DNA from: Chiloscyllium plagiosum
Taxonomy: Eukaryota
Direction of reading: 5' to 3'
Length of the DNA: 64,000 nt
Assembly (NCBI RefSeq): GCF_004010195.1
Contig: NC_057718.1
Span: forward strand, 66,898,179 to 66,962,178
Part shown: positions 1 to 62,079 of the stretch, piece by piece
Numbering within the stretch: the first letter of the stretch is position 1
Layout: each line of letters opens with the position of its first letter
The notes under the pieces: generated by a model
Told to the model about the DNA's origin: nothing
Databases searched by the model: none
Seen by the model: only the letters and a program-made list of their open reading frames with translations
Program-made: the position numbers and the translations under genes

Positions 1-547
1 TGAACGGAGGAGATTTTAAATTTCCTTTTTTTATTTTATTAAACAGTACAGTTTATAAACAATTAATATTAACAGCCATATAGAGAGAAACAGCAGGTTA
101 CAAGGGAGAGGAGTGACAAAGCCAAACCCCAAACCCCTCCATTCAACCAGTTTTCAGGGACATGAGGACAAACCACAAATTCCGCTTTCAGTCATCACAA
201 AATAAGCAAAAACAGGTACATACAAGAAGTCCAATTAGATAAGAAACAGTGCATACAATATAGACACCCTACCCCCCAGGAGCCCAGCAAGCCTCCCATC
301 CCTCCCACCTTCCAGCCACCAAAAGGCAGCCTGCCCCTACACCCCTTTCAGCTCTCAGTTCATCCTGGGGCAGCCTACCCCCCTTCAGGTTCACAGGACA
401 GCCTACCCACCCTCCAGCCCTCCAGGTAACAGCTTTCAGGACAACCTATGAGCCTCCCAGCTCACAGTAAGGCCTACCAGACCCAGGGACACAAGACAGT
501 GCAGGTGATAAGCCCAACAAGCAACAAGACAATCAATTATCAATAAA

Positions 548-875
548 CAGAGTCCCTTCTGGTACAGAGTTCATTTCTGTAATCAGTCCTCTTCAAAACA
601 GAGTCCATTCCCAGGAACAGGGTCCACTCCAGTATATAAAGTGCATTGTGAGAAATAGAATCCACTTCAAACTGCAGAGTCCATTGCCAAAAACAGAGTC
701 CACTACTGAGGGCAGAGTCCACTCCTGAAGGCAGCAAATGCACACCCCACAGCACTCAGGTGTTCAGTTTCCATCGAGTTTTGGCCCATCCATAGAAGAC
801 CAGGCCCACTCACAGGAACATAGTACATTATGAAGGTGCAGTTAACTCACAGGGGTTTTGTCCACTCCCAAACTC
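548..875. repeat. Degenerate 17-19 bp minisatellite (core CAGAGTCCACT)
   Basis: Core motif starts at 548, 565, 582, 599, 618, 637, 656, 675, 694 and 713, with weaker units near 800, 819, 837 and 856. Confidence 0.7.
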
Positions 876-1323
876 CAGGACACAGCAAATGCTCACCTCC
901 AAGCACGTACACAGAGACCTACCCACAGGAACAGTTCATCTGGAAAGGTGTTTTTTCTGGATGTGGGTTTGCTCACTGAGCTGGAAGGTTCATTTCCAGA
1001 CGTTTCATCACCATAACTAGGTAACATGTTCAATAGGCCTCCAGGCGAAGCACTGCTGATAATTCCTGCTTTCTATTTATATGTTTGGGTTTCTTTGGGT
1101 TGGTGATGTCATTTCCTGTGGTGATGCCATTTCTTGTGGTGATGTCATTACCTGTTTATTTTCTCAGGGAGTGGTAGATGGGGTCTAACTTGATGTGTTT
1201 GTTGATAGAGTTCCAATTGGAATGCCATGCTTCTTGGAATTCTCGTGTGTGTCTCTGTTTGGCTTGTCCTAGGATGGATGTGTTGTCCCAGTCGAAGTGG
1301 TATCCTTCCTTATCTTTATGTAA

Positions 1324-1504
1324 GGAGAAAGTGAGGTCTGCAGATGCTGGAGATCAGAGCTGGAAATGTGTTGCTGGAAAAGCGCAGCAGGTCAGGCAGC
1401 ATCCAGGGAACAGGAGAATCGACGTTTCGGGCATAAGCCCTTCTTCAGGAAGGGCTTATGCCCGAAACGTCGATTCTCCTGTTCCCTGGATGCTGCCTGA
1501 CCTG
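1324..1504. mobile_element. Short fold-back Penelope pLTR-derived insert nested in the Penelope element
   Basis: Near-perfect hairpin centred at about 1446. Flanked by direct repeat cttatctttatgtaa(gga) starting at 1309 and 1505. Confidence 0.85.
1421..1448 (-). ncRNA. Minimal hammerhead ribozyme motif (PLE type)
   Basis: Minus strand reads CTGAAGA-A-GGGC-TTAT-GCCC-GAAA-CG-TC: CUGANGA box, stem II, GAAA box, very short palindromic stem III, UC cleavage site. Confidence 0.7.
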
Positions 1505-2145
1505 CTTATCTTTATGTAAGGATAGTAGTGAGAGAGAGTCATGTTGTTTTGTGGCTAGTTTATGTTCATGTATCCTGGAAGCTAGTTTTCTGCCTGTTTG
1601 TCCAATGCAGTGTTTGTTACATTTCTTGCAAGGTATTTTGTAAATGACATTAGTTTTGCTTGTTGTCTGTATAGGGTCTTTCAAGTTCATTAGCTGCTGT
1701 TTTAGTGTGTTGTTGGTTTTGTGGGCTACCATGATGCCAAGGGGCCTGAGTAGTCTGGCAGTCATTCCTGAGATGTGTTTGATGTAGGGGAGAGTGGCTT
1801 GGGTTTCTGGACATGTTTTGTCTGCTTGTTTGGGTTTGTTGCTGAGAAATCGGTGGACTGTGTTCATTGGGTACCCATTCTTTTTGAATACACAGTATAG
1901 GAACTATGCAGAGCAGAGGAAAATCATCTATATCTAGTATGGTGATGAAACGTCTGGAATTGAACCTTCCAGCTCAGTGAGCAAATCTACATCCAGAACC
2001 TGAGTTACAAATCTTCTCAAAACTTGCAAAGATGTATTTTCTCACAGGGGCTCAGTCCAAACACCAAAAGAGTGAAAACACATTCAAAAAAAAGAAAACT
2101 AGAATGCAATGGCTAAGCCCTGCCACAAAATCAGCACAGTTTTAG

Positions 2146-2424
2146 ATTTTTTTTAGATTTTAGATTCCCTACAGTGTGGAAACAGGCCCTTCAGCCCACA
2201 CCGACCCTCCGAAGAGTAACCCACCCAAACCCATTTCCCTCTGACTAATGCATCTAACACTATGGGCAATTTAGCATGGTCAATTCACCTGACCTGCACA
2301 TCTTTGGACTGTGGGAGGAAACCAGAGCACCCAGAGGAAACCAATGCAGACACAGGGAGGATGTGCAAACTCCACACAGACAGTCGCCCAAGGCTGGAAT
2401 TGAACCTGGGACCCTGGTGCTGTG
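2146..2424 (-). mobile_element. HE1-type tRNA-derived V-SINE, 5' truncated
   Basis: Reverse complement of the SINE body (ggtttcctcccacagtccaaagatgtgcagg), B-box GGTTCAATTCC, ttaga-repeat tail. Confidence 0.85.
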
Positions 2425-2734
2425 GTTCTTTTCTCAATAAAAGAGAAAAGAGTCACACACAAGCTGTAGCAAGCCAGTGAAACAACAGTTCCCTAATGAG
2501 GACTGAGTTACACCTGAAACATATTGACCATGTAAATCAGACAGTTTAGAATTCAGTCCTCAATAAAAAAGGAACACCAGTTAACAAAACTGGCTTTGTA
2601 AACCAGGAAATAGGTTCTCCCAAAACAAAGCAGGAACCAACAGCAGCAGTAACATACTGACTGTGGCCCAGCCAACACAGAGTCAGTCCCCTAGTTTAAG
2701 GGGATTCTAAATCTCCTGTTTATATTTCTTCTTT

Positions 2735-3105
2735 ACTTTTTGTTTTTCCCCACATGATCACATGTTTACATTTTCTCCAGCGGCCATGTTATGTGTGTAC
2801 AGATGTGAGACACAGTGAAAGACACAAGGTGTATAAATCTTTTTTCATTTTCCACCAGCAGCAAAAAAGGAAACACCAAAGTGGCCAGTGACAAGCAGTG
2901 CTCTTCTCAACAAAGGGCAATGCTAAGTGATCATAAAAGTGGAAGGGAGGGCAGGGATTAAATCAAAATAGAGTTGGAGGGGGAAATAAAGCACTCCACT
3001 CCCTGCAGTTCCCACATCTCCCTGAACAGTTCAAGGGTGTTGGTTCCTTTTCCAGGAACACCCGGGCTCGAATGTGACCACAGAAGACAGGCAGGCCCAG
3101 GTTAA
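2735..3105 (-). mobile_element. Tx1/L1-clade LINE 3' end
   Basis: Homologous to 54530-55005 (shared gtgacaagcagtgc, aatcaaaatagagttggag and ccaggaacacccgggctcgaatgt blocks). Confidence 0.6.
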
Positions 3106-4325
3106 CAATCCTAATCAAAAACCTTGTAGTACATGGTCTCAATCACTACAGTTTATTTCCATGCTGTATGACTCTATGATCCATCAATGTTAGGACCTTT
3201 AAAGGAAAACAACATTATACACAGACCGTGTACTGCAGAGGATATAGACATGCAGGATCTCTAATTCCTAGCCATCCTGAGGTATTAGAAGTCTTTTTAA
3301 GATGCACCTCACTGCCCCTAACATTGCTGACCACCACACTGTACATTTGCACATAGAGACCTGGGAAACAATTGTAGGACAATTGGCAATAGTCACCGCA
3401 GGACTTGCTTCCTGTATACTCCTTGTTTATCTCGTTTCTGCAGGCTGTAGCAGGCTGTCAAGATAGACATTAATCCTTGGTCCATTCTTTGTGGCCATGA
3501 GGTTAGACATCGTGCTCGCAAAGTTACATTTGGGACTACACAGAGAGATAAACAACCATATCTAAGATTAAAACAGTGCATTTTATAGAAACATAGCAGG
3601 TAGTGTACAGTGCATTGTCAGCCTTGCCACCATAGCGCCCTCAAAAAGGGTATGTTGTTTGTCACCTCTCCTATTACACCTTATTGTAGTCCCTGGTTCT
3701 GTAGCTATGATGGAGGGTACCTGTATAGCAGTGGATGTTTGATTGGGTGACCCCAGGACATTTGTGCCTGGATGGTTTGCTTATTCATTTGCTTAGCCAT
3801 TTAAGCTTTGCTATATTGATCTTTGCTAGAGGCTGTTGGACATTTTCATTAATCCATGATATGAATATATCTAAGATGTAGTGTGAAGAAGAAAATTGCC
3901 TGCTGTTTCAGTTTGGCAGGCAGCTGTTGCTGGGGAGCTTCCCCAGTGCTGGGACAATATGAGGAGTTGTCTGATGTTGCTGTTTGCCCACTGCCCGCCC
4001 CTTCCATTCTGCCACCCATGGGCTTGTAAAATTCTACCAAATGTTTCAGGGAATTATCTTTCAGTTTCTGGTTTTGCATGAGAGTACTATTTCTGCTGAA
4101 AAATCATAAACAGCATACGATACCTCTGTCATTCCAGGTGTTGCCTGCTCCACTGGGTATTGAAAGCAATTTCTGGTTTTATTTCAGATTTCCAGGAATA
4201 CTTTTCGGAAGAAGAACCATACAAGACTCACAATGTTAACTCCATTTCTCTCTCTACAGCTGCTCAGTTTCTCCAGTATTCTCTGGATTTCTTTCAGTAC
4301 TTTTCTTCTGTTGGAATAATGCTAA

Positions 4326-4527
4326 TGACGTAACTCCATGAAAGCTGTATCCCTTCAAGTCACCTTTTATTTACACATGCATAGTATATGGCACTGACCC
4401 AGCTAGCTCGGAGCTGGATCCTAGAACCCCTGACACTTCTGTTTATATCTGACAGCCAGGACACCCTGCCCAATCAGGGAACTCATTTTGTGAGGTCCAC
4501 CTGTCTGACCTCATTCCAATAACTACA
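4326..4527. repeat. Short interspersed repeat with TG...CA ends (possible small solo LTR), second copy at 59947-60173
   Basis: Shares caagtcac..ttattta, cagggaactcat and ctgacctcatt...ctaca blocks with 59947-60173. No clear TSD. Confidence 0.5.
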
Positions 4528-4613
4528 GTTATTTGTATTTCTTTTTGAATTCTGTTTCTATCCTGTAATTGAAAAACAGTTTAACACTAATGTTTGTTTT
4601 TATTTCTACACAG

Positions 4614-4707
4614 AACCAATCTATAAGGGTGCAATATACGTTTGCTATTTTCAGGGCTCTTAGTCATATGATGTGTCTTGATTATGCTGCTCTTCAATTA
4701 CCTGAAG
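4614..4707 (+). CDS. Divergent HCN-family (HCN-like) channel, exon encoding pore helix and selectivity filter
   Basis: Pyrimidine tract plus CAG acceptor at 4611-4613, donor G|GTAAAA at 4708. Translates NQSIRVQYTFAIFRALSHMMCLDYAALQLPE(G), which aligns with HCN [29 protein letters not shown]. Starts in phase 0, ends in phase 1. Confidence 0.92.
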
Positions 4708-4794
4708 GTAAAAGTCATGTATCTTTAAATGTTTACATTATTAATCAAGACTTAAACAGATTGATTGTTTTTAATCTTTTGTTTTTATTGTAAA

Positions 4795-5565
4795 CATATG
4801 TATTTTGGAAAGGCAATTCAGGGCAGGAATTGTACACTGAATATTAAGGTTCTGGGAAGTGTTGCTGAAAAAAGAGATCTTGGAGAGCAGGTTCATAGTT
4901 CCTTGAAAGTGGACAGGTTAGTGAAGAAGGAGTTTGGTATGCTTGACTTTATTGGTCTGTGCATTGAGTGTAGATTTGGGAGGTCATGTTATAGCTATAA
5001 AAGACATTGGTTAGACCACTGTTGGAATAATGCAGTCAATTCTGGTCTCCCTGCTATAGGAAGGATGTTGTGAAATTTGAAAGAGTTCAGAAAAGATTTA
5101 CAAGAATGTTGCCAAGATTGGGGGGTTTGAGCCATAGGGAGAGTCTGAATAGGCTGGGGTTATTTTCCCTCAGGCATTGGAAGCTGAGGGGGCCTTTTGA
5201 AGTTTATAAAATCATAAAGGGTTTGAATAGGGTGACAGTAAAGGACTTTTCCTCCGTGTAGGAGAGTCCAAACCTAGAGGGCATGGGTTTAAGGTGAGAG
5301 GGAGAAGATTTCAAAGGGGCCTAATGGGCAACCTTTTAAAGCAGAGAGTGGTGCGCCTGTGGGATGAGCTGCCAGAAATAGCGGTGAAGGCTGTTACAAT
5401 TACAACATTTAAAATGCATCTGGATAGGTATATAAATAGGAAGGGTTTAGAGGGATATGGACCAATTGCTGACAAATGGGACTCGATTAATTTAGGATAT
5501 CTGGTCAGCATGGACAAGTTGCATCAAAGGGGCTGTTTCCATGCGGTACAACTCGATGACTCTAT
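4795..5565 (+). mobile_element. CR1 LINE 3' end, decayed
   Basis: Fragments FERVQKRFTRMLP..LNRLGLFSL and QRVVRLWDELP, typical of the CR1 ORF2 C-terminus; frameshifted. Confidence 0.9.
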
Positions 5566-7809: not shown

Positions 7810-10478
7810 GATGATGAACAGCCAGTTGTCATGTTGCACATAGGTACCAATGATATCGGTAAGAAACAGGATGAGGTCTTACAAGCAGAATTTAGGGAGT
7901 TAGAAGCCAAGTTAAAAAGTTGGGCCTCAGAGGTTTTAATCTCAGGATTGCTGCCAGTGCTATGTGCTAGTCAGAGTAGAAATGATAAAACAGGCAGGAT
8001 GAATGAGTGGCTTGAGAGATGGTGCAAAAGGAAGGGTTTCAGACGTTAGGGACATTGGGATCTGTTCTGGGGGAGGTGGGACTTTACAAATGGGATGGTC
8101 TACACTTGGGCAGAACTGGAATCAATCTCCTCGGGGGTGCTTTTGCGAGCACTGTTGGGGAGGGTTTAAACTATTGTGGCAGGAGGATGGGAACTAAATG
8201 AGGAGGTTAGTGGACAGTAAGGAGACAGTAACTAAAGCCTGTAAGGAACTAGATAATGAAGTCAGCTTGATTAAGGGGAAGAGTAGGCAGGGATCAGATG
8301 ATGAATGCTAAGGGACAGGTGGTCTGAGGTGCATTTGTTTTATGCAAGAAAATGCAGTAGGTAAGGCAGATGACCTTAAGGCTTGGATTAGTACCTGAGA
8401 GTATGATGTTATTGCTGTTACCGAGACTTGGTTGAGGGAAGGGCAAAATTGGCAACTAAATATCCCAGGATATAGATGCTTCAGGCGGAATAAAGGGGAG
8501 GTGGAGGAGTTGCATGACTGGTCAGAGAGGATATCACAGGTATGCTGATGAAGGGCACTATGGAGGACTTGAGCAGTGAGGCAATATGGGCAGAGCTCAG
8601 AAATAGGAAGGGTGCAGGCCTCCCAACAGTGATTGCGAGGTAGAGATACAAATATGTAAATAGACTATGGAAAAACGTAGGAGCAACGTAGGTGGTGGTG
8701 ATAGGAGATTTTAATTTTCCCAACATTGACTGGGATTCACTTAGTTTTAGAGGTCTAGATGGAGCAGAATTTGTAAGGAGCATCCAGGAGGGTTTTACAG
8801 AGTAGTATGTAAATCCTCAAACTCAGGAAGGGGCCACACTGGACCTGGTGTTGGGGAATGAGCCCAGCCTGTTGGTTGAAGTTGTGGTAGGAGATGATTT
8901 TGGAAATTGTGATCACAATTCCATAAGTTTTAGAATACTCATAGTCAAAGACGACAGTGGTCCAAAAGGAAGAGTGCTAAATTGGGGGAAGGCCAACAAT
9001 AGCAAAATTCGGCAGGAGTTGAGGAATATGGATTGGATGCAGTTGTTTGAGAGTAAATCGACATTTGATATGTGGGAAGCTTTTAAAGAGAGGTTGATTA
9101 GCGTGCAGGACAGACATGCCCATATGAAAATGCGGGATAGAAATGGCAAGATTAGGAAACCATAGATGACAGGTGAAATTGTGAGACTAGCTAAGAGGAA
9201 AAAGGAAGTATATATAAGGTCTAGGCGACTGAAGACATACGAAACTTTCGAAGAATATTGGGAAGGTAGGACCAATCTGAAACGAGGAATTAAGATGGCT
9301 AAAATGGATTATGAAATATCTGTAGCAAACAGGGTTAAGGAAAATCCCAAGGCCTTTTATTCACATATATGGAGCAAGAGGACAACTGGAGAAAGGGTTA
9401 GCCCACTCAAGGACAAAGGAGGGAAGTTATTTGTGGACTCAGAGAAAATAGGTGAGATTCTTATTGAGTGCTTTGCATCGTTATTCACCGAGGGACATGA
9501 TGGATGTTGAGGTTAGGGATAGATGTTTGATTACTCTTGGTAAAGTCAGCATAATGAGGGAGGAAGTGTTGGATATTGTAAAAGGCATTAAAGTAGACAT
9601 ATCCCCAGGACTGGATGGGATCTATCCCACGTTACTGAAGGAAGCAAGAGAGGAAATAGCTGGGGCCTTAACAGATATCTTTGCAGCATCCTTGAACATG
9701 TGTGAGGTCCCAGAGGACTGGAGAATTGCTAATTTTTACCCTTTGTTGAAGAAGGGTAGCAAGGATAATTCAGGTAATTATAGACCAGTGAGCCTGACAT
9801 CAGTGGTAGGGAAGCTGCTGGAGAAGATACTGAGGGATAGGATCTATTTACACTTGGAAGAAAATGGACTTATCAGTGATAGGCAGAATGGTTTTGTGCA
9901 GGGAATGTCATGTCTTACCAATTTATCAGAATTCTTTGAGGAAGTGACAAAGTTGATTGATGAGGCGAAGGGCTGAAGATGTCATATACATGGGCTTCAG
10001 TAAGGCGTTTGATAGAGTTCCCCATGGTAGGCTGATGGAGAAAGTGAAGTCGCTTGGGGTGCAGGGTGTACTAGTCAGATGGATAGAGAACTGGCTGGGC
10101 TGCAGGACACAGAGTGTAGTTGTGGAAGGAAGTTTCTCAAAATGGAGAACTGGGATCACTATTGTTTATGATATGCATAAATGATCTGGAGGAAGGTATA
10201 GGTGGTCTGATTATCATGTTTGCAGATGATACTAAGATTGGTGGAATAGCTGGGAGAATGCAGCAGAATGTAGATAGATTGGATAGTTGGGCGGAGACAT
10301 GACAGATGGAGATCAATTCCAACAAATGCAAGGTCATGCATTTTGGAAGATTCAATTCAAGAGCGGACTCTATGGTAATTGGAGAAGCTCTGGGTAAAAT
10401 TGGTGTACAGAGAGATCTGTGTGTTCAGGTCTATTGTTCCCTGAAGGTGGCAACGCAAGTCGATAGAGTGGTCAGGTA
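7810..10478 (+). mobile_element. CR1 LINE with ORF1 esterase end plus ORF2 APE and RT, decayed
   Basis: SGNH-type motifs VMLHIGTNDI and WDGLHL, endonuclease remnants (GDFN and DH motifs), RT NYRPVSLTSVVGKLLEKI, FSKAFDRVPH and FADDTK. Multiple stops and frameshifts. Confidence 0.92.
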
Positions 10479-16003: not shown

Positions 16004-16902
16004 AGGCAGCATCAAAGGAGGAGGAGAATTGACGTTTCGGGCATAAGCCCTTCTTCAAGAATGAGGAGGGTGTGCCAAGCAGGCTAAGATAAAAGGTAGA
16101 GAGGAGGGACTTGGGGGAGGGGCATAGGGAATGCGATAGGTGGAAGGAGGTTAAGGTGAGGGTGATAGGCCGGAGAGGGGGTGGGGGCGGAGAGGTCGGG
16201 AAGAAGATTGCAGGTTAAGAAGGCGATGCTGAGTCTGAGGGTTGGGACTGAGAAAAGGTGGGGGGAGGGGAAATGAAGCTGGAGAAATCTGCATTCATCC
16301 CTTGTGGTTGGAGGGTTCCTAGGCGTAAGATGAGGCGCTCTTCCTTCAGGCGTCGTGTTGCCATAGTCTGGTGATGGAGGAGGCCAAGGACCTGCATGTC
16401 CTTTGCGGAGTGGGAGGGGGAATTGAAGTGTTCAGCCACAGGGCGGTTGGGTTGGTTGGTGCGGGTGTCCCAGAGGTGTTCTCTGAAATGTTCCGCAAGT
16501 AGGCGGCCTGTCTCCCCAATGTATAGGAGGCCACGTCGGGTGCAGCGGATGCAGTAAATGATGTGTGTGGAGGTGCAGGTGAATTTCTGATGGATATTGA
16601 AGGATCCCTTGGGGCCTCACCTCTCCCCTCACTTCCCTCCAAGGCCCCAAGGGATTCTTCAATATCCATCAGAAATTCACCTTAACCTCCTTCCACCTAT
16701 CGCATTCCCAACGCCCCTCCCCCAAGTCCCTCCTCCCTACCTTTTATCTTAGCCTGCTTGGCACACCTTCCTCATTCCTGAAGAAGGGATTAGGCCCGAA
16801 ACGTCGATTCTCCTTCTCCTTTGATGCTGCCTGACCTGCTGCGCTTTTCCAGCAATGCATTTTTAAGCTCTGACCCCCAGCATCTGTAGTCCTCACTTTC
16901 TC
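16004..16902 (-). mobile_element. Penelope-like (Neptune-type) 3' fragment with inverted pLTR
   Basis: GIY-YIG C-terminus (AEHFNSPSHS..RRLKEERLILRLGTLQPQGMN). Arms 16004-16160 and 16680-16835 are inverted. TSD caa(a/g)gttactatgtc at 15989-16003 and 16903-16917. Confidence 0.88.
16778..16805 (+). ncRNA. Minimal hammerhead ribozyme motif (PLE type), sense to the channel pre-mRNA
   Basis: CTGAAGA-A-GGG-attagg-CCC-GAAA-CG-TC; stem II weakened to 3 bp. Confidence 0.55.
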
Positions 16903-24244: not shown

Positions 24245-24372
24245 GAGTTACAGAAATATGGATTCTAAACCTCAGCATGTTAACTGGATCTATCATGTAT
24301 GCTTTACTGTTGGCTCAAGTCACGGCAATGGTTACGACTGCTGACTCAAGCAGACGAGTTTACAGAGAAAAG
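24245..24372 (+). CDS. HCN-like channel, exon encoding S6 and start of C-linker
   Basis: TTTAG acceptor, AAG|GTACTT donor. The phase 1 start completes the Gly codon from the previous exon. Translates (G)VTEIWILNLSMLTGSIMYALLLAQVTAMVTTADSSRRVYREK, matching HCN [41 protein letters not shown]. Confidence 0.93.
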
Positions 24373-28661: not shown

Positions 28662-30149
28662 TGTAGGTAAAAACAATGACTGCAGATGCTGGAAACCAGA
28701 TTCTGGGTTAGAGTGGTGCTGGAAAAGCGCAGCTGTTCAGGTCGCATCCGAGGAGCAGGAAAATCGACGTTTCAGGCAAATGCCCTTCATCAGAAATAGC
28801 GGCAGAGTGCTTCAGGGTGCAGAGATAAATGAGAGGAGGGTGGGGGTGGGGAAAAAGTAGCATAGAGTACAATAGGTGAATGGGAGTGGGGATGAAGGTG
28901 ATAGTTTAGAGAGGAAGGTGGAGTGGTTAGATGGAAAGGAAGATAGGCCGGAGGACAAATCATGGGAACAGCGCTGGAAGTTTGGAACTGGGGTGAGGTG
29001 GGGAAGGGGAAATGAGGAAACTGGTGAAGTCCACATTGATGCCCTGGGGTTGACGTGTTCCCAGGCGGAAGATGAGGCGTTCTTCCTCCAGGCATCGGGT
29101 GGTGAGGGAGTGACAGTGAAGGAGGCCCAGGACCTCCATATCCTCAGCTGAGTGGGAGAGGGAGTTGAAATGTTGGGCCACAGGGCGGTGTGGTTGATTG
29201 GTGCGGGTGTCCCTAAAGATGTTTCCTAAAGTGCTCTGCTGGGAGGCGTCCAGTCTCCCCAATGTAGAGCGCATCGGGAGCAACGGATACAATAAGTGAT
29301 ATTGGTGGATATGCAGGTAAAACTTTGATGGAAGTGGAAGGCTCCTTTGGCGCCTTGGATGGAGGTGAGGGAGGAGGTGTGGGCGCAGGTTTTGCAATTC
29401 CCGCGGTGGCAGGGGAAGGTGCTAGGAGGGGAGGGTGGGTTGTTGGGGAGCGTGGACCTGACCAGGTAGTCACAGAGGGAATGGTCTTTGCGGAAGGCGG
29501 AAAGGGGTGGGGAGGGAAATATATCTCTGGTGACGGGTCCGTTTGGAGGTGGTGGAAATGTCGTCGGATGATTTGGTTTTGGTTTATGCGAAGGTTGGTA
29601 GGGTGGAAGGTGTGCACAGGGGGGTTCTGCCCTTGTTATGGTTGGAGGGGTGGGGTCTGAGGACGGAGGTGCAGGATGTGGACGAGATGCGTTGGAGGGC
29701 ATCTTTAACCACGTAGGAAGGGAAATTGTAGCCTCTAAAGAAGGAGGCCATCTGGTGTGTGACGTGATGTGTTGGAGGGCATCTTTAACCATGTGGGAAG
29801 GGAAATTGTAGCCTCTAAAGAAGGAGGCCATCTGGCGTGTTCTGTGGTGGAACTGGTCCTCCTGGGAGCAGATATGGTGGAGGCGGAGGAATTGGGAATA
29901 CGGGATGACATTTTTGCAAGAGGTAGGGTGGAAAGAGGTGTAATCCAGGTAGCTGTGGGAGTCGGTGGGTTTGTAAAAAATGTCGGTGTCAAGTCGGTCG
30001 TCATTAATGGAGATGGAGAGGTCCAGGAAGGGGAGGGAGGTGACAGAGGTGGTCCAGGTAAAATTAAAGTCAGGGTGGAATGTGTTGGTGAAGTTGATGA
30101 ATTGCTCAACCTCCTCGCGGGAGCACGAGGTGGCGCCAATGCAGTCACC
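28662..30149 (-). mobile_element. Penelope-like (Neptune-type) element, RT C-half plus GIY-YIG plus pLTR
   Basis: LPFLD, YKPTDSHSYLDY, FPCHRGNCKTCAH, YCIRCSRC and YIGETGR motifs. Perfect 17 bp TSD aaccagtagttgaattg at 28645-28661 and 30150-30166. Internal duplication of about 80 bp at 29690-29840. Confidence 0.93.
28766..28793 (-). ncRNA. Minimal hammerhead ribozyme motif (PLE type)
   Basis: Minus strand CTGATGA-A-GGGC-ATTT-GCCT-GAAA-CG-TC. Confidence 0.7.
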
Positions 30150-30213: not shown

Positions 30214-32204
30214 GAGAAAATACTGGAAAATCTCAGCAGGTCTGGCAGCATCTGTAAGGAGAGAAAAGAGCTGATGTTTCGAGTCTAACTGACCCTTTGT
30301 TAGGCCAAACATTCTCAGTATATGAGGTAGGCAATGCCCAACTTTGTCCAGCTTTGACAAAGGGTCAGTTAGACTCAAAACATCAGCTCTTTTATAGAAT
30401 ATAGAACATAGAACATTACAGCACAGTATAGTCCTGTCATACTAACCTATTCCATGTACGTCCAAACTGCTATGTCTCCCACAATCTCATTTCTCTGCAT
30501 TTTGTATAATAGCCTACTGTGGGGAACCTTATCGAACGCCTTGCTGAAATCCATATATACCACATCACCCGGTTTGATCTCATCTACCTGTTTGGTCACT
30601 TTGTCAAAAAAGTCAATAAGATTTGTTAGGCACGACCTACCCTTCACAAAACCGTGCTGACTGTCCCTGATCAGATTATTCTTTTCTAGATGGTTATAAA
30701 TCCTATCTCTTATACCCTTTTCCAAAACTTTAACAACAACTGAAGTGAGACTCACTGGTCTGTAATTACCAGTGTTGTCTCTACTACCCTTTTTGAACAA
30801 GGGAACCACATTTGCTATCCCCCAGTCCTCAGGCACTATTCCTGTAGACAATGATGATTTGAAGATCAATGCCAAAGGCTCGGCAATCTCTTCCCTTGCT
30901 TCCCAGAGGATCCTAGGATAGATCCCATCCGGCCCAGGGAACTTGTCTATTTTCACACTCTGCAGTATTTCTAATACCTCTTCCTTGTGAACTTCAATCT
31001 CTTCTAGTCTAGATGCAAGCATCTCTGTATCTCCCTCGCCAACATTTTCATTTTTTATAGTGAACACTGTCAAAAAATATTTATTTAGTGCTTCCCCTAT
31101 CTCCTCTGACTCCACACACAACTTCCCACTATTATCCTTGATTGGCCCTAATTTAACTCTTGTCATTCTTTTATTCCTGACATACCTATGGAAAGCCTTA
31201 GGGTTAACCCTGATCCTATCCGCCAACAACTTCTCATGTCTCCTCCTGGCTCTTCTGAGCTCTCTTTTTAGGTCTTTCCTGACTTCCTTGTAACCCTCAA
31301 GTGCCCTACCTGAGTTTTCACATTTTGTCCTAACATAAGCCTTCTTCTTCTTCTTGACCAGGGATTCCACTTCCTTAGTAAACCACGGCTCACGCGTTAT
31401 ATATCTTCCTCTCTGCCTGACAGGTACATGCTAATCTAGGACACACAGGAGCTTTTCCTTGAATATGCTCCACATTTTTAATGTGCTCATCCCCTGCCAT
31501 TTCCTTCCCCATTCTACGCTTCCTAAATCTTTCCTAATTGCATCGTAATTTCCCTTCCCCCGGCTGTAACTCTTGCTCGGTGGAGTACACCTATCCCTTT
31601 CCATCACTAAAGTAAACCTGACAGAATTGTGATTGCTGTCTCCAAAGTGCTCACCTACTTCCAAATCTAACACCTGGCCAGGCTCGTTACCCAGTACTAA
31701 ATCTAGTAAATTAGTTCATGGAATGCCCTGCCAGTAGCAGTGGTGGACTCTCCCTCTTTATGGGCATTTAAACGGGCGTTGGATAGGCATATGGAGGATA
31801 GTGGGCTAGTGTAGGTTAGGTGGGCTTGGATTGGCGCAACATTGAGGGCCAAAGGGCCTGTACTGCGCTGTATTTTTCTATGTTCTATGTTCTATGTTCT
31901 AAAGTGGCTTTGCCTCTTGTAGACTTATCTACATACTGTGTCAGGAAGCCCTTCTGCACACACTGGACAAAAACTGACCCATCTATAGTACTCGTACTGT
32001 AGTGATCCCAGTCAATATTTGGATAGTTGAAGTCCCCCATGATAACTACCCTGCCTCTCTCACTCCTATCGAGAATCATCTTTGCTATCCTTTCCACTAC
32101 ATATCTTTTCTCTCCTTACAGATGCTGCCAGACCTGCTGAGATTTTCCAGCATTTTCTCTTTTGGTTTCAGATTCCAGCATTTGCAGTAATTTGCTTTTA
32201 TTTT
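30214..32204. mobile_element. Fold-back pLTR-type insert split by a nested CR1
   Basis: Arm 30214-30300 is inverted relative to 30355-30393 plus 32105-32160. 14 bp TSD gatacaaacagaga at 30200-30213 and 32205-32218. Confidence 0.8.
30395..32104 (-). mobile_element. CR1 LINE ORF2 segment (APE end to RT), internally deleted
   Basis: 307 aa minus ORF 30447-31370 with NYRPVSLTS, QHGFVKGRSCLTNL and DFSKAFDKVPH; GDFNYPNIDW upstream. A short opposite-strand CR1 tail with (ctatgtt)n lies at about 31715-31900. Confidence 0.92.
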
Positions 32205-38801: not shown

Positions 38802-38948
38802 CTCCATGAGTATAAGGAATTCCTGCGTCACCATGATCTACCTAAGGAACTTCGGTTGAGAGTTTTAAATCAGCTAGCCCACCAATTCAAAGGAAAATGG
38901 TTTGATGAAAAAGTTATCCTAGGGGAACTGTCAGAATCGCTAAAACAG
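38802..38948 (+). CDS. HCN-like channel, C-linker exon
   Basis: TTTTTGTTAG acceptor, CAG|GTAATT donor, 147 nt, phase 0/0. Translates LHEYKEFLRHHDLPKELRLRVLNQLAHQFKGKWFDEKVILGELSESLKQ, collinear with HCN [49 protein letters not shown]. Not in the ORF track. Confidence 0.92.
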
Positions 38949-53069: not shown

Positions 53070-53513
53070 CTTAGTTCATCCTGCAAGTGTCGCTAGTCCA
53101 CACAGTATGGCAAAGTTATTTATGCCTAAATTGTATTCCATAACTACCATCTTTATTATTCCCTGCCATAGCCACATCTCAGACTGAACGTAACTAAGTT
53201 GTCCTAATTGGACCTGAGATGAGTTTCCAAACCCACATTTTCTCCATCATCACACATACTTGCTTCTTTCTTGTAAATATTGACTATGTTCCTTAGTTCA
53301 TCCTGCAAGTGTCTCTAGTCCACAGAGTATGGCAAAGTTATTCATGCCTAAATTGTATTCCATAACTACCATCTTTATTATTCCCTGCCATAGCCACATC
53401 TCAGGCTGAACGTAACTAAGTTGTCCTAATTGGACCTGAGATGAGTTTCCAAACCCACATTTTCTCCATCATCACACATACTTGCTTCTTTCTTGTAAAT
53501 ATTGACTATGTTC
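53070..53513. repeat. Tandem duplication, 2 x 222 bp
   Basis: 53070-53291 is repeated at 53292-53513; four substitutions seen by eye. Confidence 0.93.
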
Positions 53514-53519
53514 CTCCCT

Positions 53520-55225: not shown

Positions 55226-55463
55226 GAAGTAATCCATCATAACTGCAGCAGTCTAGTAGCCAACGCTCCCTTTTTCAAGGATTGTGATCAGAACTTCATG
55301 ATTGCATTGCTCAGTAAACTGAAATTTCACATTGCTCAAAGTGGTGAGGTCCTCTTCCATGAAGGTGCAGTTGGGAACTATATGTTATTTATTGAGAGAG
55401 GTACAATGCTTATGGAGAGACATAACATTTCAAAGAAGTTGACTGACGGAGCATTCTTGGGAG
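55226..55463 (+). CDS. HCN-like channel, exon encoding end of C-linker and N-terminal half of CNBD
   Basis: CTCTAG acceptor, G|GTAGGT donor, 238 nt, phase 0/1. Translates EVIHHNCSSLVANAPFFKDCDQNFMIALLSKLKFHIAQSGEVLFHEGAVGNYMLFIERGTMLMERHNISKKLTDGAFLG, matching HCN [59 protein letters not shown]...KLTDGSYFG. Confidence 0.94.
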
Positions 55464-57199
55464 GTAGGTGAGAAAAAGTATTTTTTTACTATACTGGAAG
55501 CGTGTGACTTCATTTGTAATGATTGAAAATTAATTGCAAGCAAAGTAAACCTAATTACTTAGCTCTGGTATATATTAAGTCTTTGTCTGATTTCTTGATT
55601 CTATATGATCATTCGTAGTGGATGTTTAATGAATTTGCTGTGAAGTGTAGAAGGGGGAATGTGCATATATTATCTCAAACATTTTACTTTTCCAAAATTA
55701 ATATGATTAGAATGACCCACATTATTCACGTAGTATGCTTCATGTTGGTATATATTTTTATTTTATCATAAATGATAATGAAAAATTCTAATTCATAAAC
55801 TTATTTCAAAATTTCTTCCTAAATTCACCAATATTCAGCTGGAAGTGATTATCATAAGTTAAATAACTGACAACCTTAAAAGCACTGATATGCAACTAAC
55901 AAAGGTAGAGGAAAATCATCTACGAGCTTCTAAATTACTATTTTTGTGAATAAATTTACTTTTGCTGCCATAACTTTTATAGAACTTCATCTGAAATCGT
56001 ATTTTATCAATATTGCTTTTTCTATTATTATAATTAAAATAGTAATTTGTTTATTTTAAAGTCATCGTGTAACATTTTATCCCAGCTCATGTAGTTTTTT
56101 GTAAAATTTAGTATTTGGTGTGTAAGTTTCATAGCAGATACCGATATACCTTTAAGGGAATCACTTGTGATGTCATCACCATATCATGGCATGGGATCTA
56201 ATGGTACTACGTTCCCAGTCAGAGCTTTGGGATAGTGCATTGGTAGTGTGCCTACCTCTGAGCTAGGAGGTCGTTTCAGAGGTGTGTCTGCAAGCAGATT
56301 GGTTAGAAAATATCTATGAAGTTCTCATTCTCTGTCTTACTGAGCTGTGTCCTTGTGCAGCATAACACGTTGAGGGAAGTTTACTATAATACATCTGAAT
56401 TGCTTACTTGAACCCAGACACCCAAGTATCTGTGATTGTAGTGTACTTACAAAGATAGCAGGTGCTGTATAAAAGTTAATTGAATTCTTCAGTACTCCAT
56501 AAACAGTATCTCATTCATAAGTTAAAGGAGCTAATACAAGTAGCCCATAATGATAATTGAGAGACTACGTAATGTCTTGCCACATCATCATGGCAACATA
56601 ATAATAAGCACCAGTAACTGGTTTTAAAGAATCTCACTGAAGATTACACAGGCTTGGAATGTAAAGCATTCAAACGACAAACACCAAGCCTACGTATGTA
56701 CATATCTCCAACTTAATATCTTAACAGAAGTTAAGGTACAGCCATTAAAATACTACTTATTAAGTTTAAAGAGAAATTGACAGCTAAAAGACTTTCTGCA
56801 GGCTCAAAACCAACATTGGCAGTAAAAATATATTTTTTGTTTAACTCCAGAGCCCTCCTGTTTGAAATGTGATTTTATACTCTGAAGAAACCTATTTGTG
56901 TGCAGTGGTCAGTTGGTTCTGCTATTTTGTTTCCTTAAATTTGGTGCCAAAGCTGGTGTTATGTCATTACTCCTTAATTGGTGCAAACTCCTGCTAGTGG
57001 CTGAATCTCCTTTATCTTTTAAAGGCATGGGTTCATACTCAGCAAGACCTCTTAAAGGATTACAATACTGAAACTTAAATAAAATAGAAATAAAAGAAAG
57101 ATAAAACAAAAGGAAAGAAAAATGAACCAAGTTAAAGAAAGGAATGTGTCCTGCCTTCTACTTAATAAATAAAAGTCATAGATCTTCAATAAGAGAAAG

Positions 57200-57737
57200 C
57201 CACTTTTGGAATATTATGTACAATTCTGATCTTCCTCCTTTCGGAAGGATGTTGTGAAATTTGAAAGGGTTCAGAAAAAAATTACAAGGATGTTGCCAGG
57301 GTTGTAACAGGGAGAGGCTGAATAGGCTGGGGCTGTTTTCCCTGGAGCGTCAGAGGCTGAGGGGTGACCTTAGAGAGACTTATAAAATCATGAGGGGCAT
57401 GGATGGAGTGAATAGACAAGGTGTTTTCCTTGGGGTGGGGGAGTACAGAACTAGAGGGCATTAGTTTAGGGTTAGAGAGCAAAGGTTTAAAACAGACGTA
57501 AAATGCATTGTTTTCTCACAAAGAGTGGTGCATGTACGGAATAAGCTGCCAGAGGAAATGGTGGAGGCTAGTACAATTGCAACATTTAAAAGGCATCTGG
57601 ATGGGTATATGAATAGGAAGGGTTTGGAGGGATATGAGCCAAGTGCTGGCAAATGAGACTAGATTAGGTTAGGATATCTGGTTGGCATGGATGAGTTGGA
57701 CCGAAGGGTCTGTCTCTGTGCTGTACGTCTCTATGAC
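57200..57737 (+). mobile_element. CR1 LINE 3' end
   Basis: RERLNRLGLFSLERQRLRGDL..YKIMRG..TRGH. Confidence 0.9.
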
Positions 57738-58269
57738 ACTTAGAAATGGAAGGCAAATACTTGATTATGAGTTGGCAGCAAGTGGCAACTTTACTGAGTT
57801 CCAGCAACTTAAGCAACATACAAAACTTTACTTCGCGGATCAGCCATAAGATATTCTGAGAGAAGATCTCAGAAAATGTTATTTTCTATTGACAAGGAAG
57901 TGTTCTGCAAAATAAATGTATCCAAATAATAAAAAAAAGTCCAGAGAAAACCTGGAAAGTACTTGAGGTCCAGCTCAAGATGTGAATCAACATTCAGTTT
58001 AAAAGACGCCTGTTCATGTTATACAGATAGAACCCCAAATGTTTATTGATGACTTTCTTGCCAGATGCCACAGCAAAGGGCATAATTTCTGCTTATTTGG
58101 AGGCTAGAGACAACATGGAAAGCAAGGTAGCAAGAAAAGAGTAGGTTTGAAGAGCTGAGCGAATGTTGCAAACATCTGATGGTAGAGTTGTTCACTCAAA
58201 TTGGATATTTTTGCACCACCATTGATGATAAATCACACTGAAATGTTCACAATCTCACTAAGCAATACT

Positions 58270-58480
58270 AGAGTTATACAGCATGGAAATAGACCCTTTG
58301 GCCCAACTCAGCTGTGCTGACCAGATATCCTAAACTGATCTAAACCCATTTTCCTGCATTTGGCCCACTTTCCTCTAAGCCCTTCCTATTCATGTACCCA
58401 TCCAGATACCTTTTAAATGTTGTAATTGTACCTGTCTCCACCACCTCTGCTGGCAGGTCATTCCATACACACACCATCTT
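58270..58480 (-). mobile_element. CR1 LINE extreme 3' end
   Basis: Reverse complement of the tail seen at 49290-49510. Confidence 0.8.
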
Positions 58481-61054: not shown

Positions 61055-61295
61055 TTATGGAAAAAAGGGAAGATGGCATTGCTAATCTCTGACAGGGACT
61101 TGGATCCTGGTGGACAGCATGATATAAAGGAAAGGAGTCCTCTTCCCGGAAATCTGGAAGAGGAGACTGTGCCACCAGGCCCTGCCAGGCTGGTCTAAGG
61201 TCACCATATGGATTGTGCTCTGGCCAGAGTGCACAGAAATATCCATAATACCATAAGAAATCAATGATCTTCTCTGCATCACCAGTGTGAGTGCC
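61055..61295 (+). mobile_element. PIF/Harbinger-type Myb/SANT-like ORF relic
   Basis: Broken reading SDRDL..LVDSMI*RKGVLFP..W..V....KINDLL followed by a gtgagt donor-like site. Confidence 0.45.
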
Positions 61296-61819
61296 AGACT
61301 CTTCCCTCTGTTGTCTCACACCCACTCTATCTCTGCTGCTGCACCTACCTCCCATCAAGGCTCATGCTCTCTCACTCTGGCCACAATCAACACCTTCACT
61401 CACTTACTCTCACACCCCACAACAAAGTAGGTAATTAATGCAGGGAGTTTGGTAAGATGTAGCAAGAAGACTTGCTAGGTCCCACAGTGATAAGCCCTCT
61501 AGAAACATTTTATTGAGGGCAATTTGGTGGCATAAGTGACAATGACTTGCTTGTGAACTTTTGTATAAGTCTAAGTGCTTTAACCATAGATCTGGTTTTC
61601 TATCTTGCAATGGTAGAGAAGCTTAAGTGTCCGTTGATCCTAAGAGCAATCCTCACTGACAGTAGTATGACAGTTTCCCCCGTCATTTTCTGTGTCATCA
61701 TCGCCACCATTCTCATCCTGCCATGAGCAAGTTTTCCAGTGGTGTGGACATTGCCTACAGGATGGACAAAAAACTTTTCAATATCAACTGGTTGAAATCC
61801 AAGAAGAAAAGGCACACAA

Positions 61820-62010
61820 AATAAAGCAAAGAACTGTGGATGCTGGAGATCTGAAACAACAAAAACAGAAACTGCTGGAGAAACTCATCTGGTTAGGCTG
61901 TGTTGGTGGACAGAAAACACAGCTAATGTTTTGAGTTCTATGAACTTCTTCAGAAGTTCTGATGCTTCCAAATCTGCAGAGTTTCTCCAGCAATTTCTGT
62001 TTTTTGTTTG
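61820..62010. mobile_element. Older fold-back pLTR-type element
   Basis: aaacagaaactgctggagaaactc is inverted to gagtttctccagcaatttctgttt. Confidence 0.6.
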
Positions 62011-62079
62011 TTACTGTCAGACAAGTAGATAAATATCCAGTTTTTGTTTGTTACAGTAAAACAAGTAGATAAATACACG

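What the first reader, a model, noticed from the sequence alone, without database searches (positions are those of the whole stretch)
4674..4688. HCN-family channel whose selectivity filter reads CLDYA instead of CIGYG
Seen: the pore-helix exon encodes ...FRALSHMMCLDYAALQLP. Both glycines of GYG are replaced (G to D, G to A) and the following loop has one extra residue, while the helix itself (QY..A.F.A.SHM.C) is conserved. Established: CIGYG is essentially invariant in HCN1-4 and invertebrate Ih channels. Engineered AYA/AAA filters give non-conducting, dominant-negative subunits. Zebrafish HCNL1 is an HCN relative with a non-conducting pore that passes protons through its voltage sensor. Inference: this shark gene is either (a) an HCNL-type proton channel, (b) a natural silent or dominant-negative subunit, or (c) a pore re-tuned by a ring of aspartates, as acidic filter residues do in CNG and NaK channels. 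I do not know of a described DYA filter.
Basis: partly seen in the sequence, partly recalled or inferred. Interest (0 to 1): 0.9.

Follow-up and report, generated by a model that had tools for sequence, protein, structure and literature searches.

The report
Shark HCN-like channel with aspartate filter
A shark gene related to the heart and brain pacemaker channels carries an aspartate where these channels always have the first pore glycine; the change is fixed in sharks and skates, so this is probably a working channel with an untested way of passing ions.

Summary
TGT CTT GAT TAT GCT (4674-4688, + strand) encodes CLDYA in a 94-nt exon. It is one of four intact AG/GT-bounded exons in the window (pore helix and filter, S6, C-linker, first half of the cyclic-nucleotide-binding domain; 202 codons, no stop). 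It is not a one-off. All five elasmobranch orthologues with this region have Asp at the first filter glycine: CLDYG in two, CLDYA in this shark and two skates. No other row of a 132-row family census has Asp there.

On the trees the gene is neither HCN1-4 nor in the branch holding the Met-bearing HCNL-type rows. It belongs to a sister branch also found in gar, sturgeon and electric eel (TLNYG/TLSYG), coelacanth (SLGYG) and a frog (TIGYA). I found no paper describing this branch.

The orthologues keep a fully charged S4 without the HCNL methionine. They have lost the S2 charge-transfer phenylalanine (Thr/Ala) and the arginine matching HCN1 R273. S6 is 33/34 identical between shark and skate.

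My best guess (about 0.4) is that the central pore is still used but re-tuned by an Asp ring. The rivals are conduction through the voltage sensor and a silent subunit. No reads could be laid, and expression is unknown.

The parts
4614..4707 (+). Exon encoding the end of the turret, the pore helix, the filter (CLDYA) and the start of the post-filter loop. It is 94 nt long, starts in phase 0 and ends with 1 spare base.
   Evidence: ag/gt splice sites. tblastn with P0003, P0005 and P0004. The exon start agrees with the junctions seen in the orthologue isoforms P0006 and P0009.
4674..4688 (+). The five filter codons TGT CTT GAT TAT GCT, reading Cys-Leu-Asp-Tyr-Ala. They align with C358-I359-G360-Y361-G362 of human HCN1.
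   Evidence: Numbering comes from the alignment of orthologue P0003 to a human HCN1 chain.
24245..24372 (+). Exon encoding the rest of the post-filter loop and all of S6, up to the conserved D-S-S-R-R junction. It is 128 nt long.
   Evidence: AG/GT splice sites. A 27-residue stretch of S6 is identical in all five orthologues. The three residues at the inner-gate end differ in this species (T-T-A against A-N-S in the other four).
38802..38948 (+). C-linker exon, 147 nt, phase 0 at both ends.
   Evidence: It is 94% identical to P0003 over 49 residues.
55226..55463 (+). Exon encoding the end of the C-linker and the first half of the cyclic-nucleotide-binding domain. It is 238 nt long and ends with 1 spare base; the donor gt is at 55464-55465.
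   Evidence: My script printed 55462 because of an off-by-one error; the slice shows the GT one base later. Pfam cNMP_binding gives a weak partial hit on this exon alone (E 0.0017).

Best explanation
Shown: the window holds four consecutive intact exons (pore helix and filter, S6, C-linker, first half of the cyclic-nucleotide-binding domain) of an elasmobranch gene. The gene belongs to a third, unnamed branch of vertebrate HCN-like channels. This branch is separate from HCN1-4 and is sister to the branch that contains the HCNL-type rows with a hydrophobic gap in S4. Asp at the first filter glycine is fixed in the elasmobranch orthologues. The second glycine switches between Gly and Ala.

Inferred mechanism (about 0.4): the protein is a subunit of a tetrameric channel with a working HCN-type voltage sensor that responds to hyperpolarisation. 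Its central pore is still in use but is no longer a K+-type filter. The two inner ion sites of HCN channels are made by the Cys and Ile/Leu backbone carbonyls, and these residues are kept. Directly above them, four Asp side chains would form an acidic ring. I expect a non-selective cation pore that binds, or passes, divalent ions such as Ca2+. I do not expect a pacemaker K+/Na+ pore. The changes in the voltage sensor (loss of the S2 phenylalanine and of one lower S4 arginine) would then tune voltage dependence rather than open a second pathway.
For: Gene integrity: four exons with AG/GT splice sites, 202 codons, no stop.

Orthology and constraint:
- The 202 residues are 90.6%, 87.6%, 80.2% and 78.2% identical to P0003, P0005, P0004 (Amblyraja) and P0009. 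They are about 40% identical to HCN1-4 rows.
- Asp is present in 5 of 5 orthologues. In the census of 132 rows, Asp occurs in the 6 group rows only.
- Shark P0003 against skate P0004 by segment: S6 33/34, S4 31/36, S5 29/36, C-linker 68/80, pore helix with filter 20/28.
- By contrast, the dead HCNL1 pore string is reported as not conserved even among cyprinids (PMC7306766, passages).

Pore residues, by alignment to human HCN1:
- C358 is kept, I359 is Leu, and Y386 and T394 are kept.
- In HCN1 the C358 and I359 carbonyls form the two K+ sites, and Y386, T394 and Q398 line the gate (PMC11189445, passages).

Ancestry: coelacanth and amphibian-type members of the same branch keep G-Y-G (SLGYG, SVGYG, TLGYG). 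The ancestral pore of the branch was therefore probably conducting.

Sensor (orthologues only):
- The S4 positions matching R267 and R270, the main gating charges in the HCN1 simulations, are kept. So is the S272 breakpoint serine (PMC6904216, passages).
- The acidic residues of S2 and S3 are kept.

Phylogeny: HCN-like group 100/99, this branch 100/100, elasmobranch clade 100/100 (ultrafast bootstrap / SH-aLRT) with a stem of 0.92 changes per column. The quick tree of 51 rows agrees.
Against: No current has been measured, and no structure of this filter exists.

Published work quoted in PMC7306766 reports that Gly-to-Ser at the first filter glycine makes Kv and human HCN4 (CISYG) pores non-conducting and dominant negative. 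It also reports that GYG-to-AAA kills HCN pores. On that basis Asp would be expected to do the same unless other changes compensate.

An L-residue at this position should disturb the backbone geometry of a K+-type filter (recalled, not tested here).

The pore helix and filter segment is only averagely conserved (20/28). High S6 conservation could reflect assembly or gating coupling rather than permeation.

Loss of the S2 phenylalanine and of the R273 equivalent could instead point to a voltage-sensor pathway.

The voltage-sensor exons and the last exon of this species lie outside the window. All sensor statements therefore rest on orthologues.

Expression is unknown, and dN/dS was not computed because no orthologue DNA was available.
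Confidence: 0.4

Rival explanations
1. HCNL-like solution reached by a different route. The central pore is plugged by the Asp substitution. Ions, most likely protons, pass through each voltage-sensing domain on hyperpolarisation. The leak would be opened by loss of the hydrophobic plug residue in S2 (Phe to Thr/Ala), not by a methionine gap in S4.
For: The gene lies in the HCN-like group, next to the branch with Met, Leu or Tyr at S4 position 3. The S2 position matching human HCN1 F186, the charge-transfer centre (PMC6904216), is Thr or Ala in 8 of 8 elasmobranch rows (5 genes). It is Phe or Tyr in 31 of 31 other rows. The R273-equivalent arginine is Ser or Asn in 4 of 4 genes that include S4. 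First-glycine substitutions are reported to give non-conducting pores (PMC7306766).
Against: The defining HCNL feature, Met at the third S4 arginine, is absent: Lys in 4 of 4 genes. S4 positions 1-4, 6 and 7 are all basic, so no S4 gap can reach the constriction. The neutral position 8 lies below the charges that cross the centre in HCN1 simulations. A Phe-to-Cys mutant at this site in a sea urchin HCN still gates, so loss of Phe need not cause a leak. The pore and S6 are strongly conserved, unlike the HCNL1 pore.
Confidence: 0.25
2. Silent or modulatory subunit. The protein does not conduct on its own. It co-assembles with HCN1-4 (or with the other HCN-like paralogue) and reduces or re-tunes their current, like engineered AYA subunits or the electrically silent Kv subunits.
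For: Filter substitutions at these glycines are reported to give non-conducting, dominant-negative HCN subunits (PMC7306766). The overall HCN architecture is kept from the HCN domain to the cyclic-nucleotide-binding domain (P0003 against human HCN1, E 1.5e-129 over residues 49-548). Strong conservation of S6 and the C-linker would suit a subunit that must fit into a tetramer.
Against: The protein is only about 40% identical to HCN1-4. It has been separated from them since before the split of cartilaginous and bony vertebrates. The Pfam Ion_trans and Ion_trans_N models no longer detect the orthologue P0003 at E <= 0.01, so the membrane and N-terminal assembly surfaces have diverged. Nothing here tests co-assembly. 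A pure suppressor gene kept for this long would be unusual.
Confidence: 0.2
3. Artefact or dying gene: an assembly error at the filter codons, or a pseudogene drifting after loss of function.
For: I could not lay reads on the exon. No RNA holder was listed (see Tried and rejected). The 5' exons and the last exon are outside the window. The window species has three private changes at the inner end of S6.
Against: The same Asp-Tyr occurs in four other elasmobranch orthologues, two of them with the identical CLDYA. The four exons are intact with canonical splice sites. The sequence is 78-91% identical to orthologues over 202 residues. Twenty runs from eight studies and three organism labels hold half or more of the sampled words of 4500-4800.
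Confidence: 0.03

Closest known systems
Classic HCN1-4 pacemaker channels (solved structures of human HCN1, HCN3, HCN4)
   Same: The architecture is the same from the HCN domain through S1-S6 and the C-linker to the cyclic-nucleotide-binding domain (orthologue P0003 against human HCN1, E 1.5e-129). S4 has regularly spaced basic residues with Ser at the fifth position. The breakpoint serine is kept. So are the pore-helix pattern, the Cys and Ile/Leu that make the two inner ion sites, Y386, T394, the D-S-S-R-R junction, and the phosphate-binding Arg of the nucleotide pocket.
   Different: The filter reads CLDYA/CLDYG instead of CIGYG, with one extra residue after it. The S2 Phe 186 equivalent is Thr/Ala, R273 is Ser/Asn, G391 is Ala, and Q398 is Ala (Thr here). 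The residue after the phosphate-binding Arg is Glu instead of Thr. The gene forms a separate clade on both trees and is about 40% identical. The pore region is split by an extra intron. The comparison with the HCN1-4 exon layout is recalled, not tested.
HCNL1 and HCNL2, the HCN-like proton channels of fishes (Wobig et al. 2020, PMC7306766)
   Same: Both are HCN relatives outside HCN1-4 with a non-canonical filter. Both belong to one strongly supported group (100/99). Both share the extra residue after the filter in the rows I aligned. First-glycine replacement (Ser in HCNL2) is a recurring theme.
   Different: The gene lies on the sister branch. It has Lys, not Met, at the third S4 position. 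Its filter and S6 are conserved, whereas the HCNL1 filter string drifts. The nucleotide-pocket Arg is kept in the orthologues, whereas it is lost in HCNL1 (legend of SI Fig. S1). The S2 Phe is lost here but present in the zebrafish HCNL1 sequence printed in the SI (seen by eye). No bona fide HCNL1/2 sequence was in my trees. Table S1 of the paper, which lists their 49 genes, is a picture and could not be read.
Orthologous branch in bony vertebrates (predicted proteins only): gar P0010, electric eel P0011, sturgeon P0160, coelacanth P0061, tailed frog P0024
   Same: They belong to the same clade (100/100). They share the extra loop residue, a fully basic upper S4 (Lys at position 3) and the F-R-A-L-type pore helix.
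   Different: At the first filter glycine they have Asn (TLNYG), Ser (TLSYG) or Gly (SLGYG, TIGYA, SVGYG), never Asp. They keep the S2 Phe and the R273-equivalent basic residue. Pfam Ion_trans and Ion_trans_N detect P0010 and P0061 but not the elasmobranch orthologue P0003.
Acidic-ring pores of CNG and NaK channels (motifs recalled, not aligned here)
   Same: These also have a short filter with inner carbonyl sites, topped by a ring of four carboxylates. In those channels this gives non-selective cation conduction with divalent binding.
   Different: In CNG and NaK the acidic residue follows the first glycine, at the Tyr position. Here it replaces the glycine, and the Tyr is kept. CNG chains match P0003 only at E about 1e-31, against 1e-129 for HCN1.

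Membership tests
Classic HCN1-4 | Filter motif C-I-G-Y-G | tested here: not met
   The window reads C-L-D-Y-A. CIGYG occurs in 108 of 113 non-orthologue rows of the list.
Classic HCN1-4 | Falls inside the HCN1-4 clade on a family tree | tested here: not met
   The HCN1-4 rows form their own clade (100/100). The elasmobranch orthologues lie in a different clade of 17 rows (100/99). The quick tree of 51 rows gives the same result. The window's own 202 residues were not placed on a tree; they are 90.6% identical to P0003.
Classic HCN1-4 | HCN-type S4 (regularly spaced basic residues, Ser at the fifth position, breakpoint Ser) and S2 charge-transfer Phe | tested here: inconclusive
   The S4 pattern is met in the orthologues apart from one neutral lower position. 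The S2 Phe is not met: Thr/Ala in 8 of 8 rows. The exons for S1-S5 of this species are outside the window.
HCNL1/HCNL2 (Wobig et al. 2020) | Methionine interrupting the S4 arginines at the third position | tested here: not met
   This position is Lys in 4 of 4 orthologous genes that include S4 (P0003, P0004, P0005, P0006). The feature is defined in PMC7306766. It cannot be tested in the window itself.
HCNL1/HCNL2 (Wobig et al. 2020) | Canonical CIGYG absent from the pore | tested here: met
HCNL1/HCNL2 (Wobig et al. 2020) | Clade membership with zebrafish HCNL1/2 | tested here: inconclusive
   The gene is sister to the branch that contains a Met-bearing row (P0182) and rows with Leu or Tyr at that site. 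No verified HCNL1/2 sequence was in the trees. I compared the zebrafish HCNL1 sequence in the SI only by eye.
Cyclic-nucleotide-binding-domain channel superfamily | C-terminal cNMP-binding domain after a six-helix channel core | tested here: met
   Pfam cNMP_binding hits P0003 at E 8.1e-14 and the window exon 55226-55462 at E 0.0017. The core aligns to human HCN1 at E 1.5e-129. Pfam Ion_trans and Ion_trans_N gave no hit for P0003 at E <= 0.01.
Cyclic-nucleotide-gated function (ligand binding) | Phosphate-binding Arg followed by Thr, Ser or Ala in the binding cassette | tested here: inconclusive
   In the orthologue P0003 the Arg is kept but the next residue is Glu, where human HCN1 has T550. 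The exon that carries it is not in the window. The effect on binding is inferred, not tested.
CNG / NaK-type acidic-ring pore | Acidic residue at the position after the first filter glycine | not tested
   The motifs are recalled. By position, the Asp here replaces the glycine and the Tyr is kept, so this is a functional analogy only.

The most novel reading that the evidence does not exclude
Elasmobranchs carry a hyperpolarisation-sensing channel whose way of passing ions differs from both HCN1-4 and HCNL1. One possibility is a central pore topped by a ring of four aspartates that passes or binds Ca2+ and other cations. The other is a voltage-sensor leak opened by natural loss of the S2 charge-transfer phenylalanine rather than by a gap in S4. 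It would be the founding functional member of a third HCN-like lineage that also exists in ray-finned fishes, the coelacanth and amphibians.
Probability: 0.45. Interest if true: 0.8.

Novelty: new variant of a known kind. Interest (0 to 1): 0.65.

Why it matters
HCN channels are the textbook case of a weakly K+-selective pore gated by hyperpolarisation. HCNL1 showed that a relative can abandon the pore and conduct protons through its voltage sensor. This gene is a natural, long-conserved experiment on the two most studied elements of voltage-gated channels: the first filter glycine and the charge-transfer phenylalanine. Expressing it would show whether an Asp at that glycine can support conduction, and with what selectivity. 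It would also show whether loss of the hydrophobic plug alone opens a gating pore. The wider branch (Gly in the coelacanth and a frog, Asn/Ser in ray-finned fishes, Asp in sharks and skates) offers a graded natural series for the same question. It also shows that HCN-like genes are not confined to fishes, since a frog carries members of both branches. Physiologically, the channel could matter for elasmobranch sperm, sensory or excitable cells. No expression data were obtained here.

Tried and rejected
- Reads: the look-up of sequencing runs listed 20 holders in 8 studies and no RNA holder. This blank says nothing about expression.
No read-level check of the codons, of variants in related species or of splicing was possible.
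- A 31-residue query was too short for the search for homologous proteins. I used the 74-residue stop-to-stop frame instead.
- A third protein search restricted to the pore-to-C-linker part of P0003 found 6 proteins at E <= 1e-20 among 203 candidates, with no further species.
- The last coding exon was sought in 55463-64000 and not found. No exon for residues before the pore helix was found in 1-4613.
- Earlier notes of this scan gave nothing by place, words or sequence.
- Literature: searches for 'HCNL2' (2 papers), 'HCNL' (93, mostly unrelated) and 'HCN-like' plus 'shark' (1, unrelated to this gene) gave nothing relevant. A search for the motif strings returned 541 papers, and the 20 listed were all noise. 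None of these searches gave a description of this branch or of an Asp filter. The library holds open-access PMC papers and bioRxiv preprints only.
- Table S1 of PMC7306766, which lists the 49 HCNL genes, is a picture and could not be read.
- dN/dS was not computed because no orthologue DNA is held by any tool I had.
- Structure and complex prediction were not run. They return scores, not coordinates, and would not separate the three mechanisms.
- Pseudogene and assembly error were rejected for the reasons given under rival explanations.

Full report
**The observation**

The + strand of 4600-4710 shows a polypyrimidine tract and an ag acceptor at 4612-4613. A 94-nt open stretch follows (4614-4707), then a gt donor at 4708-4709. 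The exon translates to 31 residues. Codons 4674-4688 (TGT CTT GAT TAT GCT) read Cys-Leu-Asp-Tyr-Ala.

A phmmer search of these 31 residues against all PDB chain sequences returned 15 chains, all human or rabbit HCN1, HCN3 or HCN4 (best E 3.7e-4).

**The gene in the window**

The closest database protein is P0002 (XP_038664330.1), with a longer isoform P0003 (XP_038664312.1, 563 aa). tblastn with P0003 and two further relatives finds four exons on the + strand:
- 4614-4707: pore helix and filter.
- 24245-24372: rest of the loop and S6.
- 38802-38948: C-linker.
- 55226-55463: end of the C-linker and first half of the cyclic-nucleotide-binding domain.

All four have AG acceptors and GT donors. 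My script printed 55462 for the last exon by an off-by-one error; the slice shows the GT one base further on. The phases fit, and the 202 codons hold no stop.

The exon start at 4614 coincides with junctions used in the orthologue isoforms P0006 and P0009. The exons for the N-terminus to S5 lie upstream of the window. The last coding exon lies downstream, with no match in 55463-64000.

The 15-20 kb introns hold decayed retroelements. There is no tandem array near the exons.

**Is the filter conserved?**

Two word-indexed searches of the 5.8-billion-protein collection and one exhaustive HMMER search of the 1.84-billion-protein set of 50%-identity cluster representatives gave the same small set of close relatives:
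- P0003.
- P0005, with isoforms P0007, P0008 and P0269-271.
- P0004, named Amblyraja in the output.
- P0009.
- P0006, named Scyliorhinus in the output; it is partial and lacks the pore.

The organism names of P0003, P0005 and P0009 were cut off in the outputs.

Over the window's 202 residues, identity is 90.6% to P0003, 87.6% to P0005, 80.2% to P0004 and 78.2% to P0009. It is 48.5% to the gar protein P0010 and about 40% to HCN1-4 rows.

The filter reads CLDYG in P0003 and P0005, and CLDYA in P0004, P0009 and the window. Asp-Tyr is therefore fixed in 5 of 5 orthologues, while the last position switches between Gly and Ala. The window protein is closest to P0003, which has Gly, and the skates have Ala. 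The switch therefore needs at least two changes.

In a census of 132 family rows, Asp at this position occurs only in the six rows of this group. Of the 113 non-orthologue rows in the list, 108 read CIGYG.

**Where the gene belongs**

I built two trees: a quick IQ-TREE of 51 rows and a careful one of 35 rows (LG+C20 by PMSF, 553 kept columns). They agree (support given as ultrafast bootstrap / SH-aLRT):
- HCN1-4 form one clade (100/100).
- A second clade of 17 rows (100/99) splits into two branches.
- One branch (100/99) holds rows whose third S4 position is Met (P0182), Leu (P0159) or Tyr (P0145 and P0185). P0145 shares its cluster with Callorhinchus proteins. A frog protein (P0201, Ascaphus) is also on this branch.
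- The other branch (100/100) holds three groups. The first is the elasmobranch group (100/100, stem 0.92 changes per column). The second is a ray-finned group: gar, alligator gar, electric eel and sturgeon, with TLNYG or TLSYG. The third is a lobe-finned group: coelacanth SLGYG, tailed frog TIGYA, and rows from very large chromosomes with SVGYG, SISYG and TLGYG.

The three groups mirror the three main jawed-vertebrate lineages. They therefore look like orthologues of one old gene that amniotes lack in these searches. Every aligned row of the 17-row clade has the extra residue after the filter. That feature is a mark of the whole HCN-like group, not of this gene.

**Comparison with the published HCNL family**

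Wobig et al. 2020 (PMC7306766; passages read, supplement) define HCNL1 and HCNL2 as follows:
- Both have a Met at the third of the regularly spaced S4 arginines.
- HCNL1 has a non-conserved, dead pore string (WPFLE, WISTK).
- HCNL2 has AISYG, QISYG or ALSYG.
- The paper reports 49 genes, 'all from fish'.

The orthologues of the window gene have Lys at that S4 position in 4 of 4 genes that include S4. So do the gar, eel, coelacanth and frog members. The gene therefore fails the defining HCNL test and lies on the sister branch.

Two caveats apply. No verified HCNL1/2 sequence was in my trees. The paper's Table S1 is a picture that I could not read. I assign the other branch to HCNL1/2 because of the Met-bearing row and a by-eye comparison with the zebrafish HCNL1 sequence printed in the supplement.

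My searches for 'HCNL2', 'HCNL', 'HCN-like' with 'shark', and the motif strings found no description of this branch or of an Asp filter.

**Anatomy relevant to mechanism**

I aligned P0003 to a human HCN1 chain (E 1.5e-129 over residues 49-548) to obtain numbering.

In the pore:
- C358 is kept and I359 is Leu.
- G360 is Asp.
- Y361 is kept.
- G362 is Gly or Ala.
- Y386 and T394 are kept.
- G391 is Ala.
- Q398 is Ala in four orthologues and Thr in the window.

According to passages of PMC11189445, the carbonyls of C358 and I359 form the two K+ sites of HCN1, and Y386, T394 and Q398 line the gate. The residues that bind ions in HCN1 therefore survive. The Asp sits directly above them.

Segment identities between shark P0003 and skate P0004 are S6 33/34, S4 31/36, C-linker 68/80, S5 29/36, pore helix with filter 20/28, S3 17/25 and S2 17/27. 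A 27-residue run of S6 is identical in all five orthologues. By contrast, S6 is only 13/34 identical between gar and electric eel.

In the voltage sensor (orthologues only):
- S4 positions 1-4, 6, 7 and 9 are basic and position 5 is Ser, as in HCN1-4.
- The S272 breakpoint serine is kept.
- The acidic residues of S2 and S3 are kept.

Two clade-specific losses stand out:
- The residue matching R273 is Ser or Asn.
- The S2 residue matching F186 is Thr or Ala in 8 of 8 rows (5 genes), against Phe or Tyr in 31 of 31 other rows. Passages of PMC6904216 call F186 the charge-transfer centre.

The same paper attributes most gating charge to R267 and the next S4 charge, which it prints as K270 and which I take to be R270. 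Both are kept here.

Pfam Ion_trans and Ion_trans_N no longer detect P0003 at E <= 0.01, although they detect the gar, coelacanth and chimaera relatives. This fits the long stem. In the binding cassette the phosphate-contacting Arg is kept, but the next residue is Glu where HCN1 has Thr. That exon is outside the window.

**Interpretation**

The pattern is a burst of change on the stem (filter Gly to Asp, S2 Phe lost, one S4 Arg lost, gate residues altered), followed by strong conservation between sharks and skates. This suggests a change of function rather than decay.

I favour continued use of the central pore with altered selectivity (about 0.4), for three reasons:
- The ion-site residues and S6 are conserved.
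- Members of the same branch keep G-Y-G, so the ancestral pore was probably conducting.
- The truly dead HCNL1 pore drifts.

The main argument against is experimental. First-glycine substitutions in Kv channels and in HCN4 are reported as non-conducting and dominant negative (quoted in PMC7306766).

I give a voltage-sensor pathway opened by loss of the hydrophobic plug about 0.25. I give a silent or modulatory subunit about 0.2, and an artefact or pseudogene about 0.03.

**What is missing**

I obtained no read-level confirmation and no expression data. I computed no codon-level selection test. The sensor exons of this species are not in the window. No functional data exist.

**Verdict**

The gene is a new variant within the HCN / HCN-like family and a good target for expression studies.

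Noticed in passing
window 24345-24353 (end of the S6 exon): The three residues at the inner-gate end of S6 read Thr-Thr-Ala in this species. They read Ala-Asn-Ser in the four other orthologues, directly after a 27-residue run that is identical in all five. The first of the three aligns with the human HCN1 gate residue Q398.
   Followed up: partly
orthologues P0003, P0004, P0005, P0006, P0009 (S2 helix; exon outside the window): The S2 charge-transfer phenylalanine (human HCN1 F186) is Thr or Ala in 8 of 8 elasmobranch rows. It is Phe or Tyr in 31 of 31 other HCN and HCN-like rows.
   Followed up: yes
proteins P0158 and P0144 (lobe-finned group, chromosomes of 2.1 and 1.3 Gb): By my hand count on the MAFFT alignment, the third S4 position is His in P0158 and Asp in P0144. 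Their filters read SISYG and SVGYG. A His at an S4 arginine site is a classic route to proton transport (recalled). The register should be checked.
   Followed up: no
proteins P0145 (cluster holds Callorhinchus proteins) and P0185: The cartilaginous-fish members of the other HCN-like branch have Tyr at S4 position 3 and Thr/Asn at position 8. Position 8 is the same lower S4 position that is neutral in the window's group. Their filter reads GNSYG.
   Followed up: no
proteins P0024 and P0201 (Ascaphus truei): A frog carries members of both HCN-like branches. The family was described in 2020 as found only in fishes.
   Followed up: partly
window 30447-31430 (-) and 9452-9976 (+); also 16215-16616 (-): The introns hold decayed retroelement frames. 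There are reverse-transcriptase fragments (Pfam RVT_1, E 3.8e-15 and 2.5e-07) and a weak sub-threshold GIY-YIG match (E 8.4e-4).
   Followed up: partly
window 53070-53515 and 29677-29840: There is a 222-bp unit present twice in tandem (98% matches), about 1.7 kb upstream of the last exon in the window. There is also an 80-bp unit present 2.1 times.
   Followed up: no
orthologue P0003, residues about 505-520 (exon outside the window): In the cyclic-nucleotide-binding cassette the phosphate-contacting Arg is kept. The next residue is Glu where human HCN1 has T550. This may weaken nucleotide binding (inference).
   Followed up: no
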